From: a virus
Lineage: Duplodnaviria; Heunggongvirae; Uroviricota; Caudoviricetes
Strand: one strand, 5' to 3'
Virus record (IMG/VR): IMGVR_UViG_3300029167_000082
Length of the DNA stretch: 11,389 nt
In this document: piece after piece, positions 1 to 11,389 of the stretch
Position numbering within the stretch: position 1 is the stretch's first letter
Layout: each line of letters opens with the position of its first letter
The notes under the pieces: model-generated
Database searches by the model: none
What the model was told of the DNA's origin: nothing
The model's input: the letters and a program-made list of their open reading frames with translations, nothing else
Program-made: the position numbers and the translations under genes

Positions 1-642
1 TCATTCTTCACCCACCAATTCATCCAGTTCAGCCAGCGTCAGAGGCTTTGGTACAGGCTTGTCGATATCGCCCATAATGCGCTGGAAGTTTCTGGCGGGC
101 ATATGGTTACGGTTCTCCAGTATTTTCGCCAGCGCGATAACATCCCACCATTTCAGGGTAATCAGCGCCTGAGCGCGGGAAAGGGATATTCGCTGTATAT
201 CGGCGTCCTCCCCACCAGCTACCCGGTATACCTCGGATAAATCACGAACATTTTTCATATCTGCTTTCCCGGACGTTTCCATCAGTGCGTCAATATCATC
301 CTCCGTATAGCGTGATTGCGCGACGATACCAGCCAGAGAGATAACCATAGCCCGGCATACCTGGTCTATCAGACGTAACCTGGTGTCATCATTCGAGAGG
401 GTGTAAGACTTAACCTCAGCCACATTCCGTGGATAGTTGGCGTGCCATACCGCGACAGCTCCACATTCATCAACATCGCCGCTAAGGTAGGTTTTTGCCA
501 CTCGGTTATTACCCGATAACGCAATTTCTACCTCCTGTATGCCGAAAAACCATGCGGCTATCGCATGACCTGCTTCATGTATTGCAAGATGTCTGGGCCA
601 GCGATAGCTGCCGAACTCAATAATGATGGGTTGCGTACTCAT
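1..642 (-). CDS. FtsH-like (M41-type) zinc metallopeptidase-domain protein, 213 aa
   Basis: ORF-track frame 1..720. HEAGHAIAAW (HExxH zinc-binding motif, identical to the FtsH HEAGHA core) lies 19 aa from the proposed start. Start placed at ATG 640..642 (MSTQPIII) because GAGAGGGAAG lies just upstream and it leaves a 10-nt gap after the SSB stop. TGA stop occupies 1..3, so the CDS is complete at the window edge. Confidence 0.7.
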   Translation of the reverse strand: MSTQPIIIEFGSYRWPRHLAIHEAGHAIAAWFFGIQEVEIALSGNNRVAKTYLSGDVDECGAVAVWHANYPRNVAEVKSYTLSNDDTRLRLIDQVCRAMVISLAGIVAQSRYTEDDIDALMETSGKADMKNVRDLSEVYRVAGGEDADIQRISLSRAQALITLKWWDVIALAKILENRNHMPARNFQRIMGDIDKPVPKPLTLAELDELVGEE

Positions 643-652
643 ATCTTCCCTC

Positions 653-1087
653 TCAGAATGGCGTTTCATCGTCGAATGGTGGGCGTTGGTCGTATTCATC
701 ACGGGATGGCTGCTGCGCACGTCTCAGCGCGTCCGTTGCCTGTCCCCGCTGTCCTGCCTTCCCGCCGGGGCGTACCGTTCTGGCGCTGATCACACTGTCG
801 GCTACTACCTGATACCCCTGCTGTGTACCGCCGTCCTGCCCTGTCCACTGGTTGAGTTGCATATTGCCTGCCACGCTCACAAGGTCGCCTTTCTGGTGCT
901 TCGCCAGCGCATCGGCCTGCTTCCCAAAAGCAATAACGCCCAGCCAGAAGGTTGACTCTCCCGCCTCTGCCGCATTACAGGGGAGAGACACCGCCAGCCG
1001 CGCCATAGCCATGTTGTTACCGTTCGTTGTGGTGCGGGTCTGGGGATCTGCCACCAGCCGCCCGTATGCTGAAATTTGTGCTGTCAT
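653..1087 (-). CDS. ssb: Single-stranded DNA-binding protein (SSB-like), 144 aa
   Basis: OB-fold-like pattern (GRLVADPQ..R.T..G, W..V.AFGK.A, KGDLVSV.G, Y.VVAD.V), a Gly/Gln-rich linker and an acidic C-terminal tail DDETPF resembling the SSB DDDIPF tip. GAGGAA RBS 8 nt upstream of the ATG. Start overlaps the stop of the upstream gene (ATGA). Confidence 0.8.
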   Translation of the reverse strand: MTAQISAYGRLVADPQTRTTTNGNNMAMARLAVSLPCNAAEAGESTFWLGVIAFGKQADALAKHQKGDLVSVAGNMQLNQWTGQDGGTQQGYQVVADSVISARTVRPGGKAGQRGQATDALRRAQQPSRDEYDQRPPFDDETPF

Positions 1088-1703: not shown

Positions 1704-4145
1704 TCAATCATCACTCTGCCCGCTCTCCACACCGTAAGCGCGTGGCATGAACTCCTCAGCCTTCTCGTTATAGCCAACGTTGGTTTGCGCTCTGCCGTTA
1801 ATGCTTCTCGTCAGGTAGCTGGCTCGGTACTCTTTTGCTGCTGATTTTATGGCGCGTGAAAACTTATTGACGGAAAGCGGTTTACCCAAACCGTGATACT
1901 CCATAAACGCCAGATAAAGATGATAAAGATACGTCCTAGGCTCTGGCTGGCCTGCCCATGTACCTCCGCCCATCATCATGCCTTTGGGTTCGTTCATGAA
2001 AAAAAGTGCCGCACACATATCGATAACCGGATCTGTGCCGCGTTTAACGTCTAGCGCCTCCTGAGAATCGCGCTGCTCAAGTAATAGTGACTTTGCTTTG
2101 TTCTGGTCGGCAAAGGTGGTTAGCAGGTGGCGGATAATCACCGGGATTTCTCGCCTGATTTTTGCGGTTAAATCCGGGTCTTTGTCTGCGTCTGATACCG
2201 GGTTATTAAACGGGAATATCACGCGGCGGCGGGCAATGCCCCCGTTTCGCTCCGTGAATGTCATCGGCTCGTTATTGGTTGCCATAACAACGGCATTTAT
2301 CACGGTTGTGAACTGCTTTTCATATTTCCCATCAATCTCTACCGGATCGCCGCCCGTAATGGCTTTAATCCCCGCACCCTCTCCAACATAGCGGGTCTGG
2401 TCAGGCATAATAATCAGGCTTTTTCCTACGAACTGCGCCCGTCCCCGTGCGGTGTCCAGCGTCATCATGCTACCGCTGGCGGTGTTGTGTTCACCTGCCA
2501 GCGTGGTTGCTATGCTGCTGAATACGGATTTCCCACTACCGCCCTCGCCAGTTATCTCAATGAATAGCTGCCAGTCGTGACGCTTCGCCAGCACCATAAA
2601 CAAGGCTGCTTTGATACGCTCGGCCTTATGATGGTCGCCAGCCGTTGCATGATTCAGCCAACGGGTAAAATTGGGGGCGCTGGTGGTAATATTTTCCCCC
2701 GGCGCTGGCGGGGTGTAGGTGATCCCATTGTGGTTCATCAGCCAGTTACCCGGCGAATGGGCGGAAAACGTCTGCGTAGCGAGGTCATAAACGCCGTTAT
2801 CAAAACCAATCAGATCCCCGCTCCGCTCACCAATTACCGGTATTTGCAGCTTCATGGTTGCGACAACCGATTTAATCCCCTTTTCGGTGTAGTGGGCTTC
2901 GTGCTCGTCGAAAATTGCCACCATAACCCTTTCTAATTCGCTGTCTGGTAGCTTCACCCATACGCCAGATTCGTAGCAGTAAACAGTGCCACTATCAGGG
3001 TTAACCGCCAACATATCCCATCGAGATGAAAGCAACCGCGCTTTCTGGCTGGCTGCCATTTGTGCAATATCTCCGACATCGGCTTTACGGCGGGATTTAC
3101 CGCCCTCAATGGCTTGCAATCGCGGTTTCACGGCTTCCCCTTGAATCTGGTACATCGAATCGTTAAACGCAGCCGTAGCGACTTCCAGCCCGTTTTGCTG
3201 GCGGTAGTCGTCCCAGTCGGCTTTGTAGTCTGTCGGCGGCAGTGCCACCCAGCCAGCCACGGATAAGGCGGCTTTCTCTGCGGCATCTTTGCCCGTGTTC
3301 GCCTGTTCGTCCTGCTGGTGGTCGTTATCTGCGGCAATGATAATCTGCGTGGCTGGATATATCCGGCGCATCACTTCGGCAACGGGTAGCAGGTTGCCCG
3401 CGTCAATTGCTGCCACTGCCAGCGCGTCCGGGCGCATCAGGTGAACTGAAAGGGCCGTCGCCAGCCCCTCGGCAATTAAAACGCTCTGCGGCGATTCTGG
3501 CGCGTTTACGGCGTGATATGCCCCGCGCTTTGCTGAACCTGTCAGGAGTCGCTTCTCTCCCTGCGGTGTAATGGTTTGCGCTGCTGCCACTGCGCCGGAT
3601 TCGTCCACCAGCTCCAGCAATAACGAACCATCCGGCATAACCGGATAGTTAAACCCGGTCAGCCCTTTTGATTGCAGGTAATCAGATTCGCCCTGTGTGG
3701 CACTCTGGCGCATTCCGGCATACAGATGGGCAAACGTAGCCCTTCGCTGCTCTGCGTCATCTGCTGCCTGTTGCTGGCGCTCCTGCTCACGCTGCTGGCG
3801 GTCAGCTTCCAGTTGCTCCCTTCTCTGGCTCGCTGCCGCCGGGTCGGTTTGCGCTGCCCGGTAATCAATACCCAGCACATCAGCGGCAAGCTGTGCCGCC
3901 TCTGTGGTGTCGCAGTTGTTCACCTTCTTAATCAGGTCTAAGCCGTCGCCCGCGCCGCATTGGTTACAGATAAAGCTACCGCGACCGTTGTCGTCGAACC
4001 GGAAGCGATCCGTACCGCCACATGCAGGGCAGGGGGCATGACGGCGTGATGAATCAGGCACGTCGATAGACAGGCCAGCCAGCACATAAGGCCAGCGCCC
4101 TGCTGCGGCGCTGGTCACTTCGCGGATAAGGTCGATATTACGCAT
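1704..4145 (-). CDS. P4 alpha-type bifunctional DNA primase / helicase (zinc-binding N-terminus, TOPRIM primase, P-loop NTPase/helicase), about 813 aa
   Basis: ORF-track frame 1704..4178. N-terminal CPACGG...CNQCG zinc-finger-like motif; TOPRIM-like IAEGLATALS and IIAADNDHQ; Walker A GEGGSGKS. Start placed at ATG 4143..4145 (MRNIDLI) because AGGAGG lies 5 nt upstream; the alternative ATG at 4176..4178 lacks an RBS. Confidence 0.85.
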   Translation of the reverse strand: MRNIDLIREVTSAAAGRWPYVLAGLSIDVPDSSRRHAPCPACGGTDRFRFDDNGRGSFICNQCGAGDGLDLIKKVNNCDTTEAAQLAADVLGIDYRAAQTDPAAASQRREQLEADRQQREQERQQQAADDAEQRRATFAHLYAGMRQSATQGESDYLQSKGLTGFNYPVMPDGSLLLELVDESGAVAAAQTITPQGEKRLLTGSAKRGAYHAVNAPESPQSVLIAEGLATALSVHLMRPDALAVAAIDAGNLLPVAEVMRRIYPATQIIIAADNDHQQDEQANTGKDAAEKAALSVAGWVALPPTDYKADWDDYRQQNGLEVATAAFNDSMYQIQGEAVKPRLQAIEGGKSRRKADVGDIAQMAASQKARLLSSRWDMLAVNPDSGTVYCYESGVWVKLPDSELERVMVAIFDEHEAHYTEKGIKSVVATMKLQIPVIGERSGDLIGFDNGVYDLATQTFSAHSPGNWLMNHNGITYTPPAPGENITTSAPNFTRWLNHATAGDHHKAERIKAALFMVLAKRHDWQLFIEITGEGGSGKSVFSSIATTLAGEHNTASGSMMTLDTARGRAQFVGKSLIIMPDQTRYVGEGAGIKAITGGDPVEIDGKYEKQFTTVINAVVMATNNEPMTFTERNGGIARRRVIFPFNNPVSDADKDPDLTAKIRREIPVIIRHLLTTFADQNKAKSLLLEQRDSQEALDVKRGTDPVIDMCAALFFMNEPKGMMMGGGTWAGQPEPRTYLYHLYLAFMEYHGLGKPLSVNKFSRAIKSAAKEYRASYLTRSINGRAQTNVGYNEKAEEFMPRAYGVESGQSDD

Positions 4146-4479
4146 GGTTGCCTCCTGCCACGGTCGCGCCCATATCATTAATCATGCTTTGCCATATCTC
4201 GCGCCCGGTATCAGTCAGGCCACCAGCATTGACGCATTTCTCCAGCATGGTGATCCCGATGCTTTCCCACTGAGGGTATGTCTCTTTGAGTGCTTCGAGC
4301 GCGTAACCATCAATAAGTTGGCGCGTGCCACTGATACCGCCCACCAGTTCCACACGGATTTGCTGGCCTGCCGCGTCAACCATGAAGTAATTGCCACCAT
4401 TGATAGCCGTGATGTGGTTGTAAAGTGCCGCCGCGTACTGGTTCGCCAGCGCATTCAGTCGGAAGTTTTTGGTAATCAT
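4138..4479 (-). CDS. Hypothetical protein, 113 aa
   Basis: ORF-track ORF. GAGGGGG RBS 5 nt upstream of the ATG. Its 3' end overlaps the primase start by 8 nt. No motif recognised. Confidence 0.55.
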   Translation of the reverse strand: MITKNFRLNALANQYAAALYNHITAINGGNYFMVDAAGQQIRVELVGGISGTRQLIDGYALEALKETYPQWESIGITMLEKCVNAGGLTDTGREIWQSMINDMGATVAGGNHA

Positions 4480-4488
4480 GTCGCCCCC

Positions 4489-5115
4489 TCAGTGCGCCGC
4501 TGGCATTTCAGGCCAGCCGTTTTCATCCAGATCAGCAATGAAGTGATCGTGTAGCTCTGCCAGCGTTTCACGTCCGAACGGGGTCAGCTCGCCGCGCTCC
4601 GTATCCAGCATGGCGCGGTAGAACACAATGGCGTTCTCTGTTCCCTGCTCAACGCCGTAGCGCTCAATCATTGCGCCCTCGATGTTGTTCGCCATCGCCA
4701 GCCGTTCAGCAAACGGGTAAACCACCATGCCCGCATTACCATTGGAGTAAATCGCCACCTGCGATGATGTGCCGTCAGCCTCAGTAACCGTGGTGGTGCC
4801 GTTCTCGCGCTTCATCTCAGAAACGAACGTCGCAGCAATCAGCCAGCGCCACATAGTGACGTTATGCTGCGCGGTGAAGTCGAACCAGCCACGCTCCCCG
4901 CCGTCAGCCACTGCCAGATGCAGGGTAAATCCTTCATCAGGGATGTCGTCATACCTGCCGCTATCGAGATGAGTTACCGCGTCTGAATAGGGAACAAGGC
5001 AAACATGCTCATACATCCCGGCATCATTGCGGGTCATGATATTGACGCCGTGCGGTGTGGCTTCGGCGTGGAACAGGTCGGGATTTCCCGGTTTAATGGT
5101 CAGTATATTGCTCAT
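4489..5115 (-). CDS. Hypothetical protein, 208 aa
   Basis: ORF-track ORF. GGGAGGG RBS about 7 nt upstream. Start overlaps the stop of the upstream 73-aa gene (ATGA). No motif recognised. Confidence 0.6.
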   Translation of the reverse strand: MSNILTIKPGNPDLFHAEATPHGVNIMTRNDAGMYEHVCLVPYSDAVTHLDSGRYDDIPDEGFTLHLAVADGGERGWFDFTAQHNVTMWRWLIAATFVSEMKRENGTTTVTEADGTSSQVAIYSNGNAGMVVYPFAERLAMANNIEGAMIERYGVEQGTENAIVFYRAMLDTERGELTPFGRETLAELHDHFIADLDENGWPEMPAAH

Positions 5116-5333
5116 GCTTTGCCCTCCCGATATTCACGCATCACATAGTCAGCCAGCTTGCTTTCGGCTTCTTCCATTGCCTCCGGGACGCCATGCAGCA
5201 AAGTGAGGATTGAACCGATAAGACGCGGAAGGTCGGGGCTAGTGTCTTTGTTGGTGCTCTCCAGCCACATGGATAAAACAGCCTGTGCCGGTTCAATCTG
5301 GCAGGCAGCATCAATCAGTTGTAACTGGCTCAT
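5112..5333 (-). CDS. Small hypothetical protein, 73 aa (paralog of the adjacent 59-aa ORF)
   Basis: ORF-track ORF with GGAGAG RBS. Shares the pattern AQ.VL.MWL...(acidic)...L..L with the neighbouring 59-aa ORF. ATGA overlaps at both ends. Confidence 0.5.
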   Translation of the reverse strand: MSQLQLIDAACQIEPAQAVLSMWLESTNKDTSPDLPRLIGSILTLLHGVPEAMEEAESKLADYVMREYREGKA

Positions 5334-5509
5334 TTGTCACTCTCCACTGCCAGCGCATCGGCCAGCCCGTCTAAGATTGTCAGCACCGCATCCACCATAT
5401 CGGGCGCTTCCCCGTCGTCGGTGGTCATGGTGTGAAGCCACATGGTGAGGACGGTCTGCGCCTGTTGGATTCTGCACATTACTTCACTAACGCTTAGTCC
5501 CTGTTTCAT
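5330..5509 (-). CDS. Small hypothetical protein, 59 aa (not in the supplied ORF track; paralog of the 73-aa ORF)
   Basis: Hand-translated: ATG at 5507..5509 preceded by GGGAGGGG 6 nt upstream, reading MKQGLSVSEVMCRIQQAQTVLTMWLHTMTTDDGEAPDMVDAVLTILDGLADALAVESDK, TGA at 5330..5332. Both ends overlap neighbours in ATGA fashion. Confidence 0.45.
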   Translation of the reverse strand: MKQGLSVSEVMCRIQQAQTVLTMWLHTMTTDDGEAPDMVDAVLTILDGLADALAVESDK

Positions 5510-5703
5510 CGCTTCCCCTCCCGTTCTGCCAATTCTTCAATCAGCCATGCGGTAACGTCACCGGAAAGGCGCTTTAGCGGAGTGGCGATTGCGGATACTT
5601 CGCTATCGGCAAGGTGATGGGGGAAGTCTTCAACCAGACGGGCAATTATTTCAGTCTGGTGCGCGCGTTCTGCGGCCTGCTCTAAGGTGAGTTCACGGCT
5701 CAT
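5506..5703 (-). CDS. Small hypothetical protein, 65 aa
   Basis: ORF-track ORF. GGAGGTGG RBS 5 nt upstream. ATGA overlap with the Icd-like gene stop. No motif recognised. Confidence 0.5.
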   Translation of the reverse strand: MSRELTLEQAAERAHQTEIIARLVEDFPHHLADSEVSAIATPLKRLSGDVTAWLIEELAEREGKR

Positions 5704-5888
5704 GCTGCCACCTCCAGACGGATGCGGCCTGCAAAGAAACAGACGTGATCTCGTGCCAGAGTTTGACGTGCTTCGCGCTCGCTTTCGGCAGCAACATGAT
5801 GGATTTTGGCGGTAATTGTCGGCATGTCGCGGCGAACGGCTGCGATTAACCAGATAAATTGTGGATTTTGGGTAGGGGTAGTAGCCAT
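5700..5888 (-). CDS. Small protein, 62 aa, possibly Icd-like (host cell division inhibitor family as annotated in P4-like islands)
   Basis: C-terminal 62 codons of ORF-track frame 5700..6578. Internal ATG at 5886..5888 (MATTPTQNPQF) is preceded by a strong AAGGAGG RBS. The Icd-like assignment is from recalled resemblance only and is not verified. Confidence 0.5.
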   Translation of the reverse strand: MATTPTQNPQFIWLIAAVRRDMPTITAKIHHVAAESEREARQTLARDHVCFFAGRIRLEVAA

Positions 5889-6077
5889 GATGGCAGCCTC
5901 CTTTGTGTTTAAGGAGTCACCGCCTGAGTTTCCACGCTCTGAAATGGCGGTGACGTTAGCAGGGGTGGAAATACCGGACACAAAGGAAACCGGCCTACGC
6001 GAACGTAGCCCCACTAACGCCACCATAGATACAGTACGGACGAGGCCGCTGATTTGATGTGCGTAGTGAACGGACAC

Positions 6078-6100
6078 AAAAAAAGACGCTTTCGGCGTCT
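6078..6100 (-). terminator. Rho-independent terminator inside the non-coding control region
   Basis: Minus-strand RNA reads AGACGC-CGAAA-GCGUCU followed by six U: stem 6084..6089 / 6095..6100, loop 6090..6094, A-run on plus at 6078..6083. Lies about 190 nt upstream of the Icd-like start. Confidence 0.6.
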
Positions 6101-6155
6101 GTGTCGCCCTGAGTGTGTTCGGGTTTCCACGCCCGGTTGCTGATTTTGCAGCAAC
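6078..6155 (-). ncRNA. Candidate ~75-80 nt small RNA (possible P4 CI / P1 c4-type immunity RNA analogue)
   Basis: Extended -10-like TGTTATAGT on the minus strand (hexamer at plus 6162..6167) about 7 nt upstream of a run that folds as hairpin 6136..6155 (GTTGCTG / CAGCAAC), hairpin 6120..6135 (CGGG-TTTCCACG-CCCG) and the terminator hairpin. Prediction by eye only. Confidence 0.3.
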
Positions 6156-6516
6156 ACTGGGACTATAACACTGATTTTCCTGCTGGTGGTCTGACCTGTA
6201 GGTACTGCCCTTTTTTACATAGTCCGAAAACTCCCCAGACGGGCGCGTAATGCTCCGAAAACTCAAGACAGCGGAATAATTTTCCACTGGCGTAGTGTTG
6301 TCAGAAAAAACTTTCTCGCGCGTACTGGTCACGAAATGCGAAAAAAACTTAGGATTTATTAGGATTCGCAGCCCAATTCTCAGCCCAGAAAACGCCTCTA
6401 AAATGTCGTCATTTGTCGCAACGGCGCGGCGATGAATGTCAGGTTTTGACAGGTTGTAAGGGTTAACATTTGCTAACAGGCCAGCCAGATTAAAGGCTTC
6501 TTTCTGGGCGGCAGGT

Positions 6517-6699
6517 TCATTCAGTATCACGGCGCACCTCCACGAACTCATTAACGAATCTCTCCAAAGGCTGAACACATGGCGACTGATAGCCCTCGCG
6601 GTAAAAGGTCACTCGGTTATGCTCGACGCGCTCAACGGTCACTACAGCCCCGTGAGAATCCTTGTAACGGCTTCCCGGCTGGGGGTTTTGGTTACGCAT
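6517..6699 (-). CDS. Small hypothetical protein, 60 aa
   Basis: ORF-track ORF. Its start overlaps the antirepressor stop by 8 nt, so it is the last gene of the alpA-led operon. No motif recognised. Confidence 0.5.
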   Translation of the reverse strand: MRNQNPQPGSRYKDSHGAVVTVERVEHNRVTFYREGYQSPCVQPLERFVNEFVEVRRDTE

Positions 6700-8286: not shown

Positions 8287-9252
8287 CTACCCCTTACCGT
8301 TGGCGGCAGCACGTAAGTGTCTCAAAATCACATCTTCATTTGTGATTGCTAACGGTGGAATTTCGTCTTTATGAGCCACTATGCAATCCCGCCACTTCTC
8401 AGGGCTTATTTCTTTCTTTTTGCCACGGCATTCATCAGGATACTTTGACAAAAGATATATTGCAGATTTGAAAAGTTTTTCCCTGTTTTCAGCATGTCTC
8501 TCGGCATTATGGTTGCTATTTTTTATTTCAGGTATTAGTTCCTGTTCTACCGCCATTTCGTATCGTTTTTTGCTCTTAGCTGCGTCAAAACTTCCATTAA
8601 CCTTTGCGTCATGAAGGTATTCTAAATCAGCCTTTGTTATATAAATGTTTTTATCTGACAGGCTACTCAGGTGAATTTGGGAACTTTGCATTTTGAATTT
8701 ATATAGATCACAATCAAATGTTGCTTCAAGTCGCACATATGGTTCTCCACATTCTTGTGAATGATAATGTCGTGTTGTTCTACCGCGTACACGCAACAAT
8801 CCACATGCAATTGATTTTCTTACAATAAAAGAGTTTTTGCCAATTTGTTCAAAAACATTTTTATTGTCGCTGTCTTCAACTGTCAGTGGTTTATGTGCAT
8901 AAAATAGCTCATAAGCACCGCTTTCAGATGCTGGGATATAAACTTCGTTGCTTGCGCTGGTAATAAGAAAAGGAAATGTAAACCTTACTTCTTCTGGGTA
9001 CATAAGTAATAAATCAGTTATAAAATTAGCATCTTTTTTGAAGTGGATGGTGGCATCAGATTCAATGAAATCAAGAAAGTCAGCATAGACATAAAAGTCT
9101 ATATGTAGTCTATCTTTCCAATGCCATATATCATCAATTTCACAATTTAATAATTTTGATGCTCGCTCTATCGTGCAGTAGTCCAAAGGTGGAATACCTG
9201 ATTCCTGCCATAAATTTCTATGCACCACTGTTGTTTCATGAGAGTCGTTCAT
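8287..9252 (-). CDS. Hypothetical protein, 321 aa; AT-rich orphan gene in the integrase-adjacent slot
   Basis: ORF-track ORF. AAAGGTGA RBS 6 nt upstream. Hand-counted 60-nt samples give about 32-38% GC against about 53% in a primase sample. Own terminator downstream. No catalytic motif recognised by eye. Confidence 0.75.
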   Translation of the reverse strand: MNDSHETTVVHRNLWQESGIPPLDYCTIERASKLLNCEIDDIWHWKDRLHIDFYVYADFLDFIESDATIHFKKDANFITDLLLMYPEEVRFTFPFLITSASNEVYIPASESGAYELFYAHKPLTVEDSDNKNVFEQIGKNSFIVRKSIACGLLRVRGRTTRHYHSQECGEPYVRLEATFDCDLYKFKMQSSQIHLSSLSDKNIYITKADLEYLHDAKVNGSFDAAKSKKRYEMAVEQELIPEIKNSNHNAERHAENREKLFKSAIYLLSKYPDECRGKKKEISPEKWRDCIVAHKDEIPPLAITNEDVILRHLRAAANGKG

Positions 9253-9347
9253 TGCGTCACCTTTTACGCTGCGCCTTATTTTGTGATTGAGCCAGGCGGT
9301 AAGGCTTCCCGCTTTTCGCCCCGTCGAGCTAGGCTCAATCTATTCAG

Positions 9348-10607
9348 TTAGTTCGCCCTTCTGAGAGGCGTTACGTTGTAGTCTTTTCCGCTTTCCAGTG
9401 CCACCAGCAGATCAGCCCACTGTGCCAGTGCTGCTTTACGCTCATCAAAATACTGATGGCGGTTATAAATCCCCTCTACGCCCTTAATGCGATGATTGAG
9501 GCATCGTTCCGCCACGACAGGATCAACACCCAACGCTGCTAAATGAGTACGTGCGGTGCGTCGGAAGTCGTGAATCGTGAAATTAGGCACATCCGGCATT
9601 TCGGCGCGAACCTTAGCCAGTGCTACGGGCAAAGTGCTTTCCTGAATATGTGGGATCATTCTGTTTTGCATCTTCCTGGCTGGAAGCACCCATGCGCTAT
9701 TACATGAAAAGGTGTGTAGCTCTCTCAACCATTCAACGGCTGGGGAAGGTAGAGGTATATCAATAGGGTCTCCGTTTTTGCTGCGTTCTTCCGGCAAATG
9801 CCATACCGCACCATCTAAATCAAACTCTTCCCATCGTGCGGCGCATAACTCCATCTTACGAACGCATAGTGCCAGCAATAGCTTAAATGTCAGTTCGTTC
9901 TGGCGGCTGAATCCTTTTGCGGTGCGCATAGCCTCGAATAGCCTGATAAGCTCATCGCGAGTTAGCCAACGGTCGCGGGAAACCTCTTTACCACCAGCAT
10001 CAGATACTTCAAACGCTGAACAAGGGTTTATCTCCAGAGCGTGGCGTTTTATCCCGTAGTCAAAGATACGGCGTGTCCAGCGTAATACATCTGTTGCTAT
10101 CGTTGGTGCTCCTCGGTCAACGATACCTTTCAACATGTCGTCAATGTGGCGTGGCTTAACGTCCTCTACCTTCATATGCCCAATGCAGGGGTTAATATCC
10201 TTATCAATTCTCCGGCGAAGGATATCGGGATGTTTCCATCTCGGAAGTATCTGGCGCTCGAAGTATTCGGAGGCCAGATCTGAAACACGCATGGCGTTTT
10301 TCTCAGCCTCCATTTTTGCCAGTGCTTCAGCTTTTCGTTCCTGTTTCTCTGCTGCTACGTCATAGCCAAGAGCAACTCTGGCTGACAGCTCTTTTGCTGT
10401 TTCTCTGGCTTTTGATAGTGACAGTTCGGAGTAAGAGCCTATAACCATAGCCCGCTGCTTTCCTGCGAGCTTATAGCGGAATCGCCAGAACGGGGCTGTG
10501 TAGTTTTTGGGGTAGCAAATATAAAGGCCGTTGCCGTCTGCCTTGCCATCAAATCTGTCTCCCGCCTTTATCCATGCGCGGATCTGCATATCTGTGAGTT
10601 TTGGCAT
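9348..10607 (-). CDS. int: P4-family tyrosine recombinase / integrase, 419 aa
   Basis: ORF-track frame 9348..10691. N-terminus MPKLTD..I.AWIK....DGK.DGNGLYI...WRFRYK matches the P4-type arm-binding domain. C-terminal catalytic region has HDFRRTARTHLAALG and GIYNRHQY (candidate catalytic Tyr). Start chosen at ATG 10605..10607 by homology pattern; the upstream ATG at 10691 lacks an RBS. Confidence 0.9.
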   Translation of the reverse strand: MPKLTDMQIRAWIKAGDRFDGKADGNGLYICYPKNYTAPFWRFRYKLAGKQRAMVIGSYSELSLSKARETAKELSARVALGYDVAAEKQERKAEALAKMEAEKNAMRVSDLASEYFERQILPRWKHPDILRRRIDKDINPCIGHMKVEDVKPRHIDDMLKGIVDRGAPTIATDVLRWTRRIFDYGIKRHALEINPCSAFEVSDAGGKEVSRDRWLTRDELIRLFEAMRTAKGFSRQNELTFKLLLALCVRKMELCAARWEEFDLDGAVWHLPEERSKNGDPIDIPLPSPAVEWLRELHTFSCNSAWVLPARKMQNRMIPHIQESTLPVALAKVRAEMPDVPNFTIHDFRRTARTHLAALGVDPVVAERCLNHRIKGVEGIYNRHQYFDERKAALAQWADLLVALESGKDYNVTPLRRAN

Positions 10608-10635
10608 TGCGAATACCTGAATATCGAATATGGGT

Positions 10636-10688
10636 GTGTACATAAAGCAATGTACATGAAAGTCATTATGTACACCTCTATGTACACG
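10636..10688 (+). repeat. Four direct repeats of (A)TGTACA(T/C) upstream of int; candidate integrase arm-type or regulator binding sites
   Basis: TGTACAT at 10637 and 10651, TGTACAC at 10669 and 10681, all within about 50 bp between the int start and the yicC terminator. One more TGTACAT at 8226..8232 upstream of alpA. Confidence 0.45.
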
Positions 10689-10732
10689 CATATTGTGCGC
10701 TTTATTGCGTCGTTATGATAGCTCATGATAAC

Positions 10733-10769
10733 AAAAAAGCCCGACATTTCGCGGGCTTTGTGGTTTTTT
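10733..10769. terminator. Intrinsic terminator of yicC (bidirectional-looking hairpin)
   Basis: AGCCCG (10738..10743) / CGGGCT (10752..10757) stem with 8-nt loop, flanked by AAAAAA (10733..10738) on one side and TTTGTGGTTTTTT on the other; about 40 nt downstream of the yicC stop. Confidence 0.6.
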
Positions 10770-10795
10770 GCTGCTTGGTGATTTTTACTGATAGC

Positions 10796-11389
10796 TTATT
10801 CGATATTCTGAATCTGCTCGCGCATCTGCTCAATCAACACTTTCAGCTCAATCGCGGAGTTTGTCACTTCGGCATTGATAGACTTCGACGCAAGAGTGTT
10901 CGACTCGCGGTTGAACTCCTGCATCATAAAGTCCAGACGACGACCAACGGCTTCTTTTTTCTTCAGAATGTTGTACGTCTCTTTAACATGCGCTTCGAGG
11001 CGGTCCAGTTCTTCGGCAACGTCAATTCGTTGTGCCAGCAGAACCAACTCCTGCTCCAGACGGTTGTTTTCCAACTGAACCTGAGCATCTTCCAGCTTCG
11101 CGACCAAGCGTTCACGCTGCCATTGCAGGATTTCCGGCATATGGGAGCGGACTTTGACCACTTCGGCGGTGACGCCTTCCAGACGCTGCTCGATCAATGC
11201 TTTCAGTGCCTGACCTTCGGTTTCGCGCGCGACAATAAAGTCGTCCAGCGTACCATCCAGCGCCGCGAGAATTTCAGCGGCAATGGCGTCAAGATCCTGC
11301 TCCTGGGCTGCCATCACGCCCGGCCAGCGTAGAATATCAACCGGGTTGATTTCCCCTTCGTCCCTCTGCATTTTTACCCAGTTCGCGGC
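10796..11389 (-). CDS. yicC: C-terminal part of YicC-family protein (chromosomal gene, 5' end beyond the window)
   Basis: Minus-strand frame stays open to the window edge and ends ...IEQMREQIQNIE at the stop 10796..10798. Recognised from memory as the YicC C-terminus. The Met at 11371 in the ORF track is internal. Confidence 0.75.
   Translation of the reverse strand, partial: AANWVKMQRDEGEINPVDILRWPGVMAAQEQDLDAIAAEILAALDGTLDDFIVARETEGQALKALIEQRLEGVTAEVVKVRSHMPEILQWQRERLVAKLEDAQVQLENNRLEQELVLLAQRIDVAEELDRLEAHVKETYNILKKKEAVGRRLDFMMQEFNRESNTLASKSINAEVTNSAIELKVLIEQMREQIQNIE

What the first reader, a model, noticed from the sequence alone, without database searches (positions are those of the whole stretch)
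4138..5888. Chain of six translationally coupled small genes upstream of the primase, including a tandem paralog pair
From the Icd-like gene to the primase, successive genes overlap by ATGA (5700..5703, 5506..5509, 5330..5333, 5112..5115) or by 8 nt (4138..4145), each with its own good SD. This implies tight stoichiometric co-expression. The 59-aa ORF (5330..5509, absent from the ORF track) and the 73-aa ORF share AQ.VL.MWL followed by an acidic segment and a Leu-rich helix, so they look like a tandem duplication. P4 carries its derepressor and helper-interaction functions in the equivalent position.
Basis: partly seen in the sequence, partly recalled or inferred. Interest (0 to 1): 0.45.

Follow-up and report, generated by a model that had tools for sequence, protein, structure and literature searches.

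The report
RNA-gated early operon of a satellite island
The six overlapping small genes are real and form the early operon of an E. coli phage-satellite island that is switched off by a P1/P4-type antisense RNA; this is a familiar design, and the only new part is an uncharacterised trio of small helical proteins.

Summary
On the minus strand, icd (5888..5700), g65, g59, g73, g208, g113 and a P4-type primase (4145..1704) are joined by four ATGA overlaps, one 9-nt spacer and one 8-nt overlap. Each gene has a GGAGG-like SD.

g59 is a real gene. PGAP annotates it, it is conserved down to 58% identity with length kept, and pN is far below pS. g59 and g73 are true paralogs (BLASTP E 5e-11; hhalign 98%). 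They are ancient subfamilies, not a local duplication.

Directly upstream lie an isrK-like leader and a C4 antisense RNA. The C4 loop is exactly complementary to the icd Shine-Dalgarno site. Across nine loci, six different loop sequences each match their target exactly.

The layout copies P1 immI (c4-icd-ATGA-ant1) and the P4 left operon. The overlaps most likely carry C4 repression of icd down to the primase.

Across about 33 related islands, icd and g208-g113-primase are fixed. The small genes between them are swapped cassettes. g59-type, g65-type and g73-type genes recur together.

No chain protein resembles P4 epsilon. The g208 C-terminus weakly resembles P4 Cnr. The architecture is known; the biochemical function of the small proteins is not.

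The parts
6116..6168 (-). a1/b1 upstream target region for C4 RNA (Rfam c4-a1b1). It overlaps the 5' part of the isrK-like leader.
   Evidence: RF03163 scores 54.9 bits against a gathering score of 46.7. GUGGAAA at 6130..6124 is complementary to C4 UUUCCAC.
6079..6155 (-). isrK-like leader RNA ending in an intrinsic terminator hairpin followed by a U-run
   Evidence: RF01394 scores 72.1 bits against 50. A terminator-like site lies at 6100..6084 on the minus strand.
5943..6030 (-). C4-family antisense RNA (the immunity RNA)
   Evidence: RF01695 scores 81.1 bits against 45, a full-length match. The MFE fold exposes the loop UUUCCUUUGUGU.
5899..5935 (-). C4 target sites a2 (5935..5929, GUGGAAA) and b2 (5908..5899, ACACAAAGGA). 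b2 overlaps the icd Shine-Dalgarno sequence.
   Evidence: Exact 7-nt and 10-nt complementarity to C4. Compensatory covariation of b'/b2 (6 types) and a'/a2 (3 types) is seen in 9 loci. The layout matches the annotated P1 immI region.
5700..5888 (-). icd: Icd-like small protein (62 aa), first translated gene of the chain
   Evidence: NF033153 scores 73.7 bits against 25. It is 43% identical to the C-terminal part of the P4 'cI' ORF. pN is far below pS.
5506..5703 (-). g65: 65-aa acidic helical protein (E65 family, phrog_1478)
   Evidence: PHROG E 1.8e-27. Orthologs with 50-86% identity occur in 15 or more loci. dN/dS is about 0.1. ATGA overlap with icd.
5330..5509 (-). g59: 59-aa acidic helical protein, Q59 subtype of the Q family
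   Evidence: 26 homolog clusters down to 58% identity with length conserved. pN 0.14 against pS 0.80 versus the Tatumella ortholog. PGAP annotates the CDS.
5112..5333 (-). g73: 73-aa acidic three-helix protein, Q73 subtype of the Q family and paralog of g59
   Evidence: 121 homolog clusters. hhalign against the g59 family gives 98%, E 2.8e-13. The AF2 model has pLDDT 85 and three helices.
4489..5115 (-). g208: conserved 208-aa protein (phrog_1515) whose C-terminal ~65 aa weakly resemble P4 Cnr/ORF106 (DUF5375)
   Evidence: PHROG E 4.7e-47, plus phrog_5991 at E 7e-4. hhalign of the deep family alignment against P4 ORF106 gives 80%, E 1.4e-5. Four close homologs carry a precomputed PF17345 hit.
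4138..4479 (-). g113: conserved 113-aa protein (phrog_37628), almost always overlapping the primase start by 8 nt
   Evidence: PHROG E 6.4e-49. 48 loci were found with its profile. The -8 junction to the primase is seen in nearly all loci.
1704..4145 (-). P4-alpha-type primase/helicase (813 aa), last gene of the chain
   Evidence: Pfam Zn_Ribbon_Prim, Toprim_3, DUF5906, D5_N and Pox_D5. TIGR01613 scores 110.7 against 108.7. It is 38.7% identical to P4 alpha over 98% of its length.

Best explanation
The chain is the immunity-controlled early (replication) operon of an int-alpA-primase satellite island integrated next to yicC in E. coli.

Proposed sequence of events:
- Transcription enters through an isrK-like leader with a leaky terminator and passes a C4-family antisense RNA gene.
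- C4 RNA pairs through two single-stranded segments with sites a2 and b2. Site b2 covers the Shine-Dalgarno sequence of icd, so icd translation is blocked.
- Every downstream gene starts on or within a few bases of the preceding stop codon. Loss of icd translation is therefore expected to remove ribosomes from the whole 4.2-kb message. That lowers translation of g65, g59, g73, g208, g113 and the primase, and exposes the RNA to Rho-dependent termination.
- When repression is lifted, the coupled chain is expressed as a unit.

The 3' part (g208 with a Cnr-like tail, g113, primase) is the fixed replication module. The 5' part (g65, g59, g73) is a swappable cassette of small acidic helical proteins.

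I propose, with lower confidence (about 0.4), that these three act together as protein-binding effectors aimed at a helper-phage or host protein. They occupy the slot that holds Ant1/2 in P1, epsilon in P4 and AnrP in Gifsy-1.

Shown here: gene structure, paralogy, RNA identity, RNA-target complementarity with covariation, conservation, and cassette shuffling. Inferred: repression, polarity, and the biochemical role of the small proteins.
For: Architecture:
- Junctions and SD sequences are verified.
- There is no intrinsic terminator on the minus strand inside the chain, apart from one weak site within the primase gene.

RNA gate:
- Rfam hits lie above gathering scores for C4, isrK and c4-a1b1 directly upstream of icd.
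- The C4 loop UCCUUUGUGU pairs with ACACAAAGGA, which overlaps the icd SD. UUUCCAC pairs with GUGGAAA both downstream (a2) and upstream (a1).
- In the nine loci examined (the window and eight relatives with C4 hits), the b' loop has six different sequences. The site at the icd SD is always its exact 8-10-nt complement. a'/a2 covary in three types.

Precedents:
- The annotated P1 record shows a1, b1 - c4 - a2, b2 - icd - ATGA - ant1, with the note that icd is apparently required for ant expression.
- P4 has an Icd-like ORF, an 8-nt overlap to epsilon, then an 8-nt overlap to orf151.
- In Gifsy-1, an AUGA-coupled leader ORF was shown experimentally to be needed for anti-repressor translation (PMC4825925).

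Accessibility: predicted accessibility of the icd and g65 initiation regions lies in the lowest 3-4% of the transcript.

Real genes: pN is far below pS for all six, and homologs occur across Enterobacterales.

Cassette nature:
- 33 loci share ICD ... F208 (+9) F113 (-8) PRI, with 1-10 variable small genes between.
- L019 differs from the window by a 176-nt, gene-sized indel.

Trio: in every one of the eight distinct islands examined that carry a Q59-type gene, an E65 gene and a Q73-type gene (or its distant relative f17) are also present. Genera include Escherichia, Tatumella, Yersinia, Symbiopectobacterium, Erwinia and Pantoea.

Small proteins are acidic (pI 4.05-5.05) and helical.
Against: - No expression data exist. 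Each gene has its own strong SD, so independent initiation is possible and coupling may be only partial.
- Predicted RBS occlusion is weak for g59, g73, g208 and g113.
- Only 8 of 24 related loci scanned gave a C4 hit above the Rfam gathering score, so the RNA gate may be divergent or absent in some relatives.
- A second route of expression, such as read-through from the alpA-antA-DUF4222 operon, is not excluded.
- The effector role of g65/g59/g73 rests on position, composition and co-occurrence only. There is no homology to any characterised protein in Pfam, NCBIfam, PADLOC, PDB sequence search or Foldseek.
- The island also carries an AntA-type antirepressor elsewhere, so an anti-repressor role for the small proteins is not required.
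Confidence: 0.65

Rival explanations
1. Stoichiometric replication complex. The small proteins are accessory subunits or regulators of the primase/helicase (loader, origin-binding or copy-number factors). The overlaps exist to set fixed ratios with the primase.
For: - g113 overlaps the primase start by 8 nt in almost every locus, and g208-(+9)-g113 spacing is conserved.
- The g208 C-terminus resembles P4 Cnr, the copy-number regulator of P4 (cnr role as stated in PMC8628076).
- All genes lie in one operon with the primase.
Against: - This fits g208 and g113 but not g65, g59 and g73. These three are absent or replaced by unrelated small genes in islands with nearly identical icd, g208 and g113.
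- Q-family and E65-family genes also occur in prophage early-left operons with no primase nearby: Fels-1 and the Yersinia prophage-like locus L065.
- g113 is paired with two different primase types, of about 811-818 aa and about 898-937 aa.
Confidence: 0.2
2. Plain genome compaction. The overlaps are the ordinary packing seen in phage-derived DNA and carry no regulatory meaning. Each gene is translated from its own SD.
For: - Every gene has a good SD.
- Equally tight junctions occur in the other operons of the island and in Fels-1 and P4.
- Four-base overlaps are the commonest overlap class in bacteria (general knowledge).
- The RBS regions of g59, g73, g208 and g113 are not predicted to be occluded.
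Against: - In the two experimentally studied relatives of this module, the ATGA junction after the leader ORF is functionally required (P1 record note; Gifsy-1).
- The icd and g65 RBS regions are predicted to be strongly structured.
- The overlap pattern is kept across 30 or more loci even though gene content changes.
Confidence: 0.15
3. One reading: a recent tandem duplication producing P4-epsilon-like helper derepressors.
For: - g59 and g73 are adjacent and homologous.
- In P4, epsilon occupies the slot directly after the Icd-like ORF.
Against: - There is no nucleotide-level repeat between the two genes, and protein identity is only 37%.
- Both subtypes exist as separate orthologs in distant genera, usually not adjacent.
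- No similarity to epsilon is found by BLAST, hhalign or Pfam PF25738.
Confidence: 0.05

Closest known systems
Bacteriophage P1/P7 immI operon (c4 antisense RNA - icd - ant1/ant2)
   Same: - Same order of parts: a1/b1 targets, C4-family RNA, a2/b2 targets with b2 at the icd ribosome-binding site, and an Icd-like ORF whose stop overlaps the next start as ATGA.
- Loop/target covariation defines specificity types, as between P1 and P7 (the P1/P7 comparison is from general knowledge).
   Different: - Downstream of icd, P1 has one antirepressor gene pair. Here there are five small or medium genes and a primase.
- The element is a chromosomal int-alpA island, not a plasmid prophage.
- An isrK-like terminated leader precedes C4.
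Satellite phage P4 left operon (CI RNA region - Icd-like ORF - epsilon - orf151 - cnr/orf106 - alpha)
   Same: - An RNA-based immunity region is followed by an Icd-like ORF, and overlapping small genes end in an alpha-type primase.
- The primase is 38.7% identical to alpha.
- The g208 tail weakly resembles Cnr.
   Different: - No homologs of epsilon or orf151.
- No psu, delta or sid in the window or in the ECONIH4 flank.
- The island carries AntA, DUF4222, SSB and a different small-gene cassette.
Gifsy-1 isrK-orf45-anrP locus of Salmonella (PMC4825925)
   Same: - The isrK-family leader has a read-through terminator.
- A leader ORF is coupled by AUGA to the downstream effector, and coupling was shown to be required.
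   Different: - There the short RNA activates translation in trans and the effector is a single antirepressor.
- Here a C4 RNA with exact anti-SD complementarity is present, and the coupled chain is seven genes long.
Gram-negative phage-inducible chromosomal islands (int-alpA-pri type, e.g. EcCICFT073, EcCIMP1)
   Same: - Integrase, int-alpA RNA motif, AlpA, antirepressor, Ash/Icd region, primase, and no structural genes in view.
- Similar Enterobacter islands are classed as PICIs and mostly carry Icd (PMC13612085; PMC11773190).
   Different: - Helper dependence, packaging module and induction were not examined here.
- Among the papers read here, neither the Enterobacter nor the EcCIMP1 PICI paper describes the small-gene chain or its RNA gate.

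Membership tests
C4/immI-type antisense immunity module (P1/P7 c4-icd) | C4-family RNA with the family's sequence and structure | tested here: met
   RF01695 scores 81.1 bits against a gathering score of 45, model positions 1-87 of 87.
C4/immI-type antisense immunity module (P1/P7 c4-icd) | Single-stranded a' and b' segments complementary to a2/b2 at the ribosome-binding site of the downstream ORF | tested here: met
   7-nt and 10-nt exact complements are present, with b2 overlapping the SD. Six b'/b2 types and three a'/a2 types covary in 9 loci.
C4/immI-type antisense immunity module (P1/P7 c4-icd) | Upstream a1/b1 decoy or target sites in the same transcript | tested here: met
   RF03163 scores 54.9 bits against 46.7. 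a1 GUGGAAA lies at 6130..6124. b1 was not identified as an exact complement.
C4/immI-type antisense immunity module (P1/P7 c4-icd) | Icd-like ORF directly downstream, with its stop overlapping the next gene's start | tested here: met
   NF033153 scores 73.7 bits against 25. The ATGA junction lies at 5700-5703. P1 has the same junction.
C4/immI-type antisense immunity module (P1/P7 c4-icd) | C4 represses icd translation and thereby downstream expression | not testable with these tools
   Needs reporter fusions or ribosome profiling.
P4-like satellite (core set int, psu, delta, sid, alpA, epsilon, alpha; PMC8628076) | alpha primase, integrase, AlpA | tested here: met
   TIGR01613 hit and 38.7% identity to P4 alpha. 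Phage_integrase and Phage_AlpA hits.
P4-like satellite (core set int, psu, delta, sid, alpA, epsilon, alpha; PMC8628076) | psu, delta and sid capsid-hijacking module | tested here: not met
   No such ORFs occur in the window or in the 15.8-kb annotated ECONIH4 region, which extends about 4.6 kb past the primase. The far end of the island was not delimited.
P4-like satellite (core set int, psu, delta, sid, alpA, epsilon, alpha; PMC8628076) | epsilon derepression protein | tested here: not met
   PF25738 matches P4 epsilon but none of the chain proteins. BLAST and hhalign are negative. The PF10554 Phage_ASH hit falls on the translated RNA region, not on a chain gene.
Gram-negative PICI (int-alpA-pri island) | Integrase, AlpA regulator and primase/rep in one orientation, with no phage structural or lysis genes | tested here: met
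   within the 11.4-kb window and the ECONIH4 flank.
Gram-negative PICI (int-alpA-pri island) | Induction, excision and packaging by a helper phage | not testable with these tools
   Experimental.
Cnr / DUF5375 (PF17345), for g208 | Match to the family profile above its threshold | tested here: inconclusive
   - Pfam gives no hit for g208 or for 45 family representatives.
- Weak hits: phrog_5991 at E 7e-4, and hhalign 80%, E 1.4e-5 over 64 columns against P4 ORF106.
- PF17345 is precomputed on 4 close homologs.
Q family (g59 + g73; phrog_20558 / phrog_2196; no Pfam family) | Shared N-terminal helix motif C-x-(I/V)-x-Q-A-Q-x-V-L-x-x-W-L and second helix (V/I)LT(I/L)L-x-G | tested here: met
   - BLASTP E 5e-11 and hhalign 98%.
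- Both proteins hit phrog_20558 and phrog_2196.
- Alignment A6.

The most novel reading that the evidence does not exclude
The g59-type, g65-type and g73-type proteins form a conserved three-protein module, possibly a hetero-oligomer of small acidic helical proteins. C4/Icd-gated satellites and some prophages would express it first on derepression. The module would take over the role that antirepressors (P1 Ant, P4 epsilon, Gifsy AnrP) play in the same slot, or would neutralise a host defence. The stretch between icd and the Cnr-like gene would then be an unrecognised hotspot where such effectors are exchanged as SD-ATGA-bounded cassettes.
Probability: 0.25. Interest if true: 0.55.

Novelty: new member of a known kind. 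Interest (0 to 1): 0.3.

Why it matters
The finding links a chain of unannotated small genes to a defined switch: an antisense RNA that masks the first ribosome-binding site. The six covarying specificity types seen in only nine loci suggest these islands form several hetero-immune groups.

It also defines two uncharacterised small-protein families (Q and E65). They travel together in satellites and prophages across Enterobacterales, and they sit where known systems keep their helper-derepressing proteins. That makes them reasonable candidates when searching for what sets satellite-helper specificity.

A practical point follows from the annotation. The long 'Icd-like/Ash' CDS called by annotation pipelines covers two RNA genes, so protein-based surveys that use the Ash profile may partly be detecting RNA conservation.

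Tried and rejected
- **g65 as a third paralog of g59/g73.** The sequences look alike by eye (LTLEQAAE-AHQAE...). hhalign gives only 7% probability (P 0.005). Rejected as unproven.
- **Homology of any chain protein to P4 epsilon or orf151.** Negative.
- **Pfam, NCBIfam and PADLOC for the five unknown proteins.** Nothing found.
- **PDB sequence search with family profiles.** Nothing below E 0.002, and nothing credible.
- **Foldseek of the g73 model against PDB.** No match with E below 1; a three-helix protein is too generic.
- **tblastn of Icd against the phage collection.** No match at E 1e-3, although a pairwise search finds P4. This is a database-size effect.
- **P1 immI region.** The first attempt fetched the wrong part of the genome.
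- **Riedel et al. 1993 (PMC204598).** Not held in the library. The P1 mechanism is therefore cited from the GenBank record notes, a later paper's introduction (PMC8198154) and my own knowledge.
- **The 75-aa family between epsilon and alpha in P4-like satellites (PMC8628076).** Whether it is the Q family was not resolved. The E. coli P4 hits were nearly identical to P4 itself.

Full report
**1. What is in the sequence**

The window is E. coli DNA. The stretch 4100-5950 is 100% identical to the chromosomes of strains ECONIH4, 0H26 and others. All genes of interest lie on the minus strand.

Translation and junction analysis give these genes:
- icd 5888..5700 (62 aa)
- g65 5703..5506
- g59 5509..5330
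- g73 5333..5112
- g208 5115..4489
- g113 4479..4138
- a primase 4145..1704 (813 aa)

Four junctions are ATGA overlaps. g208->g113 is a 9-nt spacer. g113->primase is an 8-nt overlap (ATGCGTAA). Every start is ATG, preceded by a GGAGG-like motif.

RefSeq annotates all five unnamed ORFs, including the 59-aa one (WP_002436684.1).

**2. Are the genes real, and are g59 and g73 related?**

g73 has 121 homolog clusters in Enterobacter, Klebsiella, Salmonella, Citrobacter, Kluyvera, Serratia and Tatumella.

g59 has 26 homolog clusters in Escherichia, Tatumella, Pantoea, Yersinia and Erwinia. These go down to 58% identity, with length conserved at 59-61 aa.

Codon-level comparison with orthologs shows purifying selection on all six genes. 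For example, g59 against Tatumella gives pN 0.14 and pS 0.80, and g73 gives dN/dS 0.04-0.24.

g59 and g73 align at 37% identity over 43 residues (E 5e-11). Their family profiles match with 98% probability (E 2.8e-13, 52 columns). Both hit phrog_20558 and phrog_2196, which have unknown function. I call this the Q family.

Its hallmark is an N-terminal helix C-x-(I/V)-x-QAQ-x-VL-x-x-WL. An acidic loop and a second helix (V/I)LT(I/L)L-x-G follow. The Q73 subtype adds a third helix (alignment A6; AF2 model with pLDDT 85).

No nucleotide-level repeat links the two genes. The only direct repeats in the region are the junction motifs themselves, GGGAGGG-N6-ATGA. The duplication is therefore old.

**3.

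Rfam finds three features directly upstream of icd:
- an isrK-like leader (6155..6079, 72 bits) ending in a terminator hairpin
- the a1/b1 target motif (6168..6116)
- a full-length C4 antisense RNA (6030..5943, 81 bits against a threshold of 45)

The exposed C4 loop UCCUUUGUGU is the exact complement of ACACAAAGGA at 5908..5899, which overlaps the icd Shine-Dalgarno sequence. UUUCCAC pairs with GUGGAAA both downstream (a2, 5935..5929) and upstream (a1, 6130..6124).

I compared the window with eight related loci that also carry Rfam C4 hits. The loop sequence takes six different forms. In every case the site at the icd SD is its exact 8-10-nt complement. The a'/a2 pair covaries in three forms. 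This is strong comparative evidence that C4 pairs with the icd ribosome-binding site.

**4. Comparison with known systems**

*P1.* The annotated P1 genome shows the same order: a1, b1, c4 RNA, a2, b2, icd, then ant1. The ant1 start overlaps the icd stop as ATGA. The record notes that icd is apparently required for ant expression.

*P4.* P4 has an Icd-like ORF, 43% identical to the window's Icd. It overlaps epsilon by 8 nt, and epsilon overlaps orf151 by 8 nt. Then come cnr/orf106 and alpha.

*Gifsy-1.* The isrK leader is followed by a short ORF coupled by AUGA to the antirepressor anrP. Mutational work showed the coupling is needed (PMC4825925).

From my own knowledge of the P1 literature (Citron and Schuster 1990; Biere et al. 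1992; Riedel et al. 1993; not readable here), C4 blocks icd translation, and this causes Rho-dependent termination before ant.

The most economical reading of the ATGA chain here is the same mechanism stretched over seven genes. It makes the primase, and hence island replication, depend on icd translation.

Predicted local RNA accessibility fits in part:
- The icd and g65 initiation regions are in the lowest 3-4% of the transcript.
- The primase region is at the 19th percentile.
- The others are unremarkable.

**5. Diversity of the chain**

I fetched 48 loci from one-genome-per-species contigs, using a profile of g113. Further loci came from look-ups of homologous proteins.

I then walked from the icd stop to the primase in 33 loci. 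The frame is conserved: ICD ... F208 (+9) F113 (-8) primase. Between icd and F208 lie 1 to 10 small genes drawn from a shuffled set of families (Q, E65, f5, f7, f8, f12, f13 and others).

Of 226 junctions, 79% are overlaps, mostly -4 and -8. My start-picking rule favours the nearest ATG, which inflates the -4 count somewhat.

E. coli islands with 82-88% identical Icd and F208 carry entirely different cassettes of 59, 104 and 87 aa. A close relative (L019) differs from the window by an exact 176-nt indel equal to g59, bounded by the SD motif and the next ATGA. Tight junctions are also the rule elsewhere in this island and in the early-left operon of Fels-1.

Coupling is therefore a property of the whole class of elements, not of this locus.

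**6. A recurrent trio**

Classifying Q members by subtype shows a pattern. Each of the eight distinct islands examined with a Q59-type gene also has an E65 gene and a Q73-type gene. The loci are the window, L007, L015, L008/9, L020, L064 and L065. The eighth is L047 (= L063), where the partner is f17.

f17 is a distant Q relative (hhalign 67%; Q-family HMM E 8e-5).

The usual order is Q59-E65-(x)-Q73. The window has E65-Q59-Q73. L065 carries the block, preceded by an Icd-like 91-aa ORF, in a prophage-like setting that has a CI/S24-type repressor.

Q73-type genes also occur alone or with E65 only. This co-occurrence across six genera suggests the three act together.

The three proteins are acidic (pI 4.05-5.05) and helical.

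**7. Function of the proteins**

None of the five unknown proteins matches Pfam, NCBIfam or PADLOC. PDB sequence searches and Foldseek give nothing credible.

No chain protein resembles P4 epsilon.

g208 belongs to a family of about 128 clusters at 50% identity. The family is also found in phiP27, Stx phages and Klebsiella phages.

The C-terminal ~65 residues of g208 weakly resemble P4 ORF106/Cnr:
- phrog_5991, E 7e-4
- hhalign 80%, E 1.4e-5
- PF17345 precomputed on four close homologs

Pfam itself does not call this domain. PMC8628076 states that cnr controls P4 copy number and that a cnr family lies between epsilon and alpha in 90% of P4-like satellites.

I therefore regard g208-g113-primase as the replication module. 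I regard g65/g59/g73 as accessory effectors. Their slot is the one held by antirepressors in P1, P4 and Gifsy-1, but this is an inference from position only.

**8. What kind of element**

The window also carries the following:
- an integrase next to yicC
- the int-alpA RNA motif
- AlpA
- an AntA antirepressor
- DUF4222
- SSB

No psu, delta or sid is seen in the window or in the annotated ECONIH4 flank. The island therefore fails the P4-like core definition. It fits the int-alpA-primase class that recent surveys file as PICIs, which mostly carry Icd (PMC13612085).

The exact cassette combination is rare. Only 9 of 5426 complete E. coli genomes cover at least 80% of the query.

**9. Verdict**

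It needs correction on three points:
- The paralogs are ancient, not a local duplication.
- The similarity to P4 is positional only.
- The key feature is the upstream C4 RNA gate.

The architecture is a new member of a well-known kind. The uncharacterised Q/E65 trio and the cassette hotspot are modest new leads.

Noticed in passing
window 5865..6167 (within ORF 6578..5700, minus strand): Pfam Phage_ASH (PF10554, E 9e-24) matches residues 138-238 of the 292-aa ORF. That stretch is the translated isrK plus C4 RNA region. PGAP calls a 276-aa 'Icd-like' CDS across both RNA genes. In another strain the same stretch is annotated as a broken 'ash family' pseudogene plus a short Icd. The 'Ash protein family' signal may largely reflect RNA conservation. 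The P4-like satellite survey used PF10554 as its epsilon marker.
   Followed up: partly
window 5112-5129, 5506-5523, 5700-5717: The only direct repeats in the chain are the junction motifs (minus strand: C-GGGAGGG-N6-ATGA), at 72-78% identity. The g59 indel relative to L019 is bounded by exactly these motifs. They might serve as microhomology for cassette gain and loss.
   Followed up: partly
window 8287..9252 (minus strand): A 321-aa ORF between int and alpA has much lower G+C (0.37; GC3 0.29) than the rest of the island (about 0.50-0.56). It has no Pfam hit, and a weak PADLOC hit to candidate system PDC-S31 (E 0.002). It is possibly a cargo or defence gene. In ECONIH4 an ISSpu7 transposase is inserted between it and alpA.
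   Followed up: no
window 9273..9339 (minus strand): An int-alpA RNA motif (RF02996, 60.6 bits) lies between the integrase and the 321-aa ORF. The same motif is present in many related loci.
   Followed up: no
window 1..720 (minus strand): An ORF running off the window end contains the sequence AIHEAGHAIAAWFFG, which is reminiscent of an HExxH zinc-protease motif. No Pfam or PADLOC family matches.
   Followed up: no
L008-L058, junction before the primase: g113-type genes overlap the primase start by 8 nt in almost all loci. The primase itself comes in two types: P4-alpha-like of 811-818 aa (window, L015, L028) and a longer type of about 898-937 aa, annotated TOPRIM + DUF927 where annotation is available. 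So g113 stays while the primase body is exchanged.
   Followed up: no
L019, L021, L046: Three loci with typical enterobacterial island content are titled Chryseobacterium sp., Pseudomonas lundensis and a Paenochrobactrum MAG. For example, Icd in L021 is 98% identical to the Yersinia type. Contamination, mis-binning or recent transfer are possible explanations.
   Followed up: no
L002 2510..3084: RefSeq names two small cassette proteins 'ubiquinol-cytochrome C reductase' (104 aa) and 'nicotinic acetylcholine receptor subunit beta' (87 aa). g208 homologs in Klebsiella phages are named '2-polyprenylphenol hydroxylase related flavodoxin oxidoreductase'. These look like propagated misannotations.
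   Followed up: no
L008/L009 124..2436 and window 9348..11371: The island sits next to yicC, with the integrase adjacent, in both E. coli and Yersinia. This points to a conserved integration site across genera.
   Followed up: no
L065 1397..4295: The block Icd-like(91 aa)-Q59type-E65-f16-Q73type also occurs downstream of a CI-like HTH/S24 repressor in a Yersinia enterocolitica prophage-like region with no primase nearby. The trio is therefore not restricted to primase-bearing satellites.
   Followed up: partly
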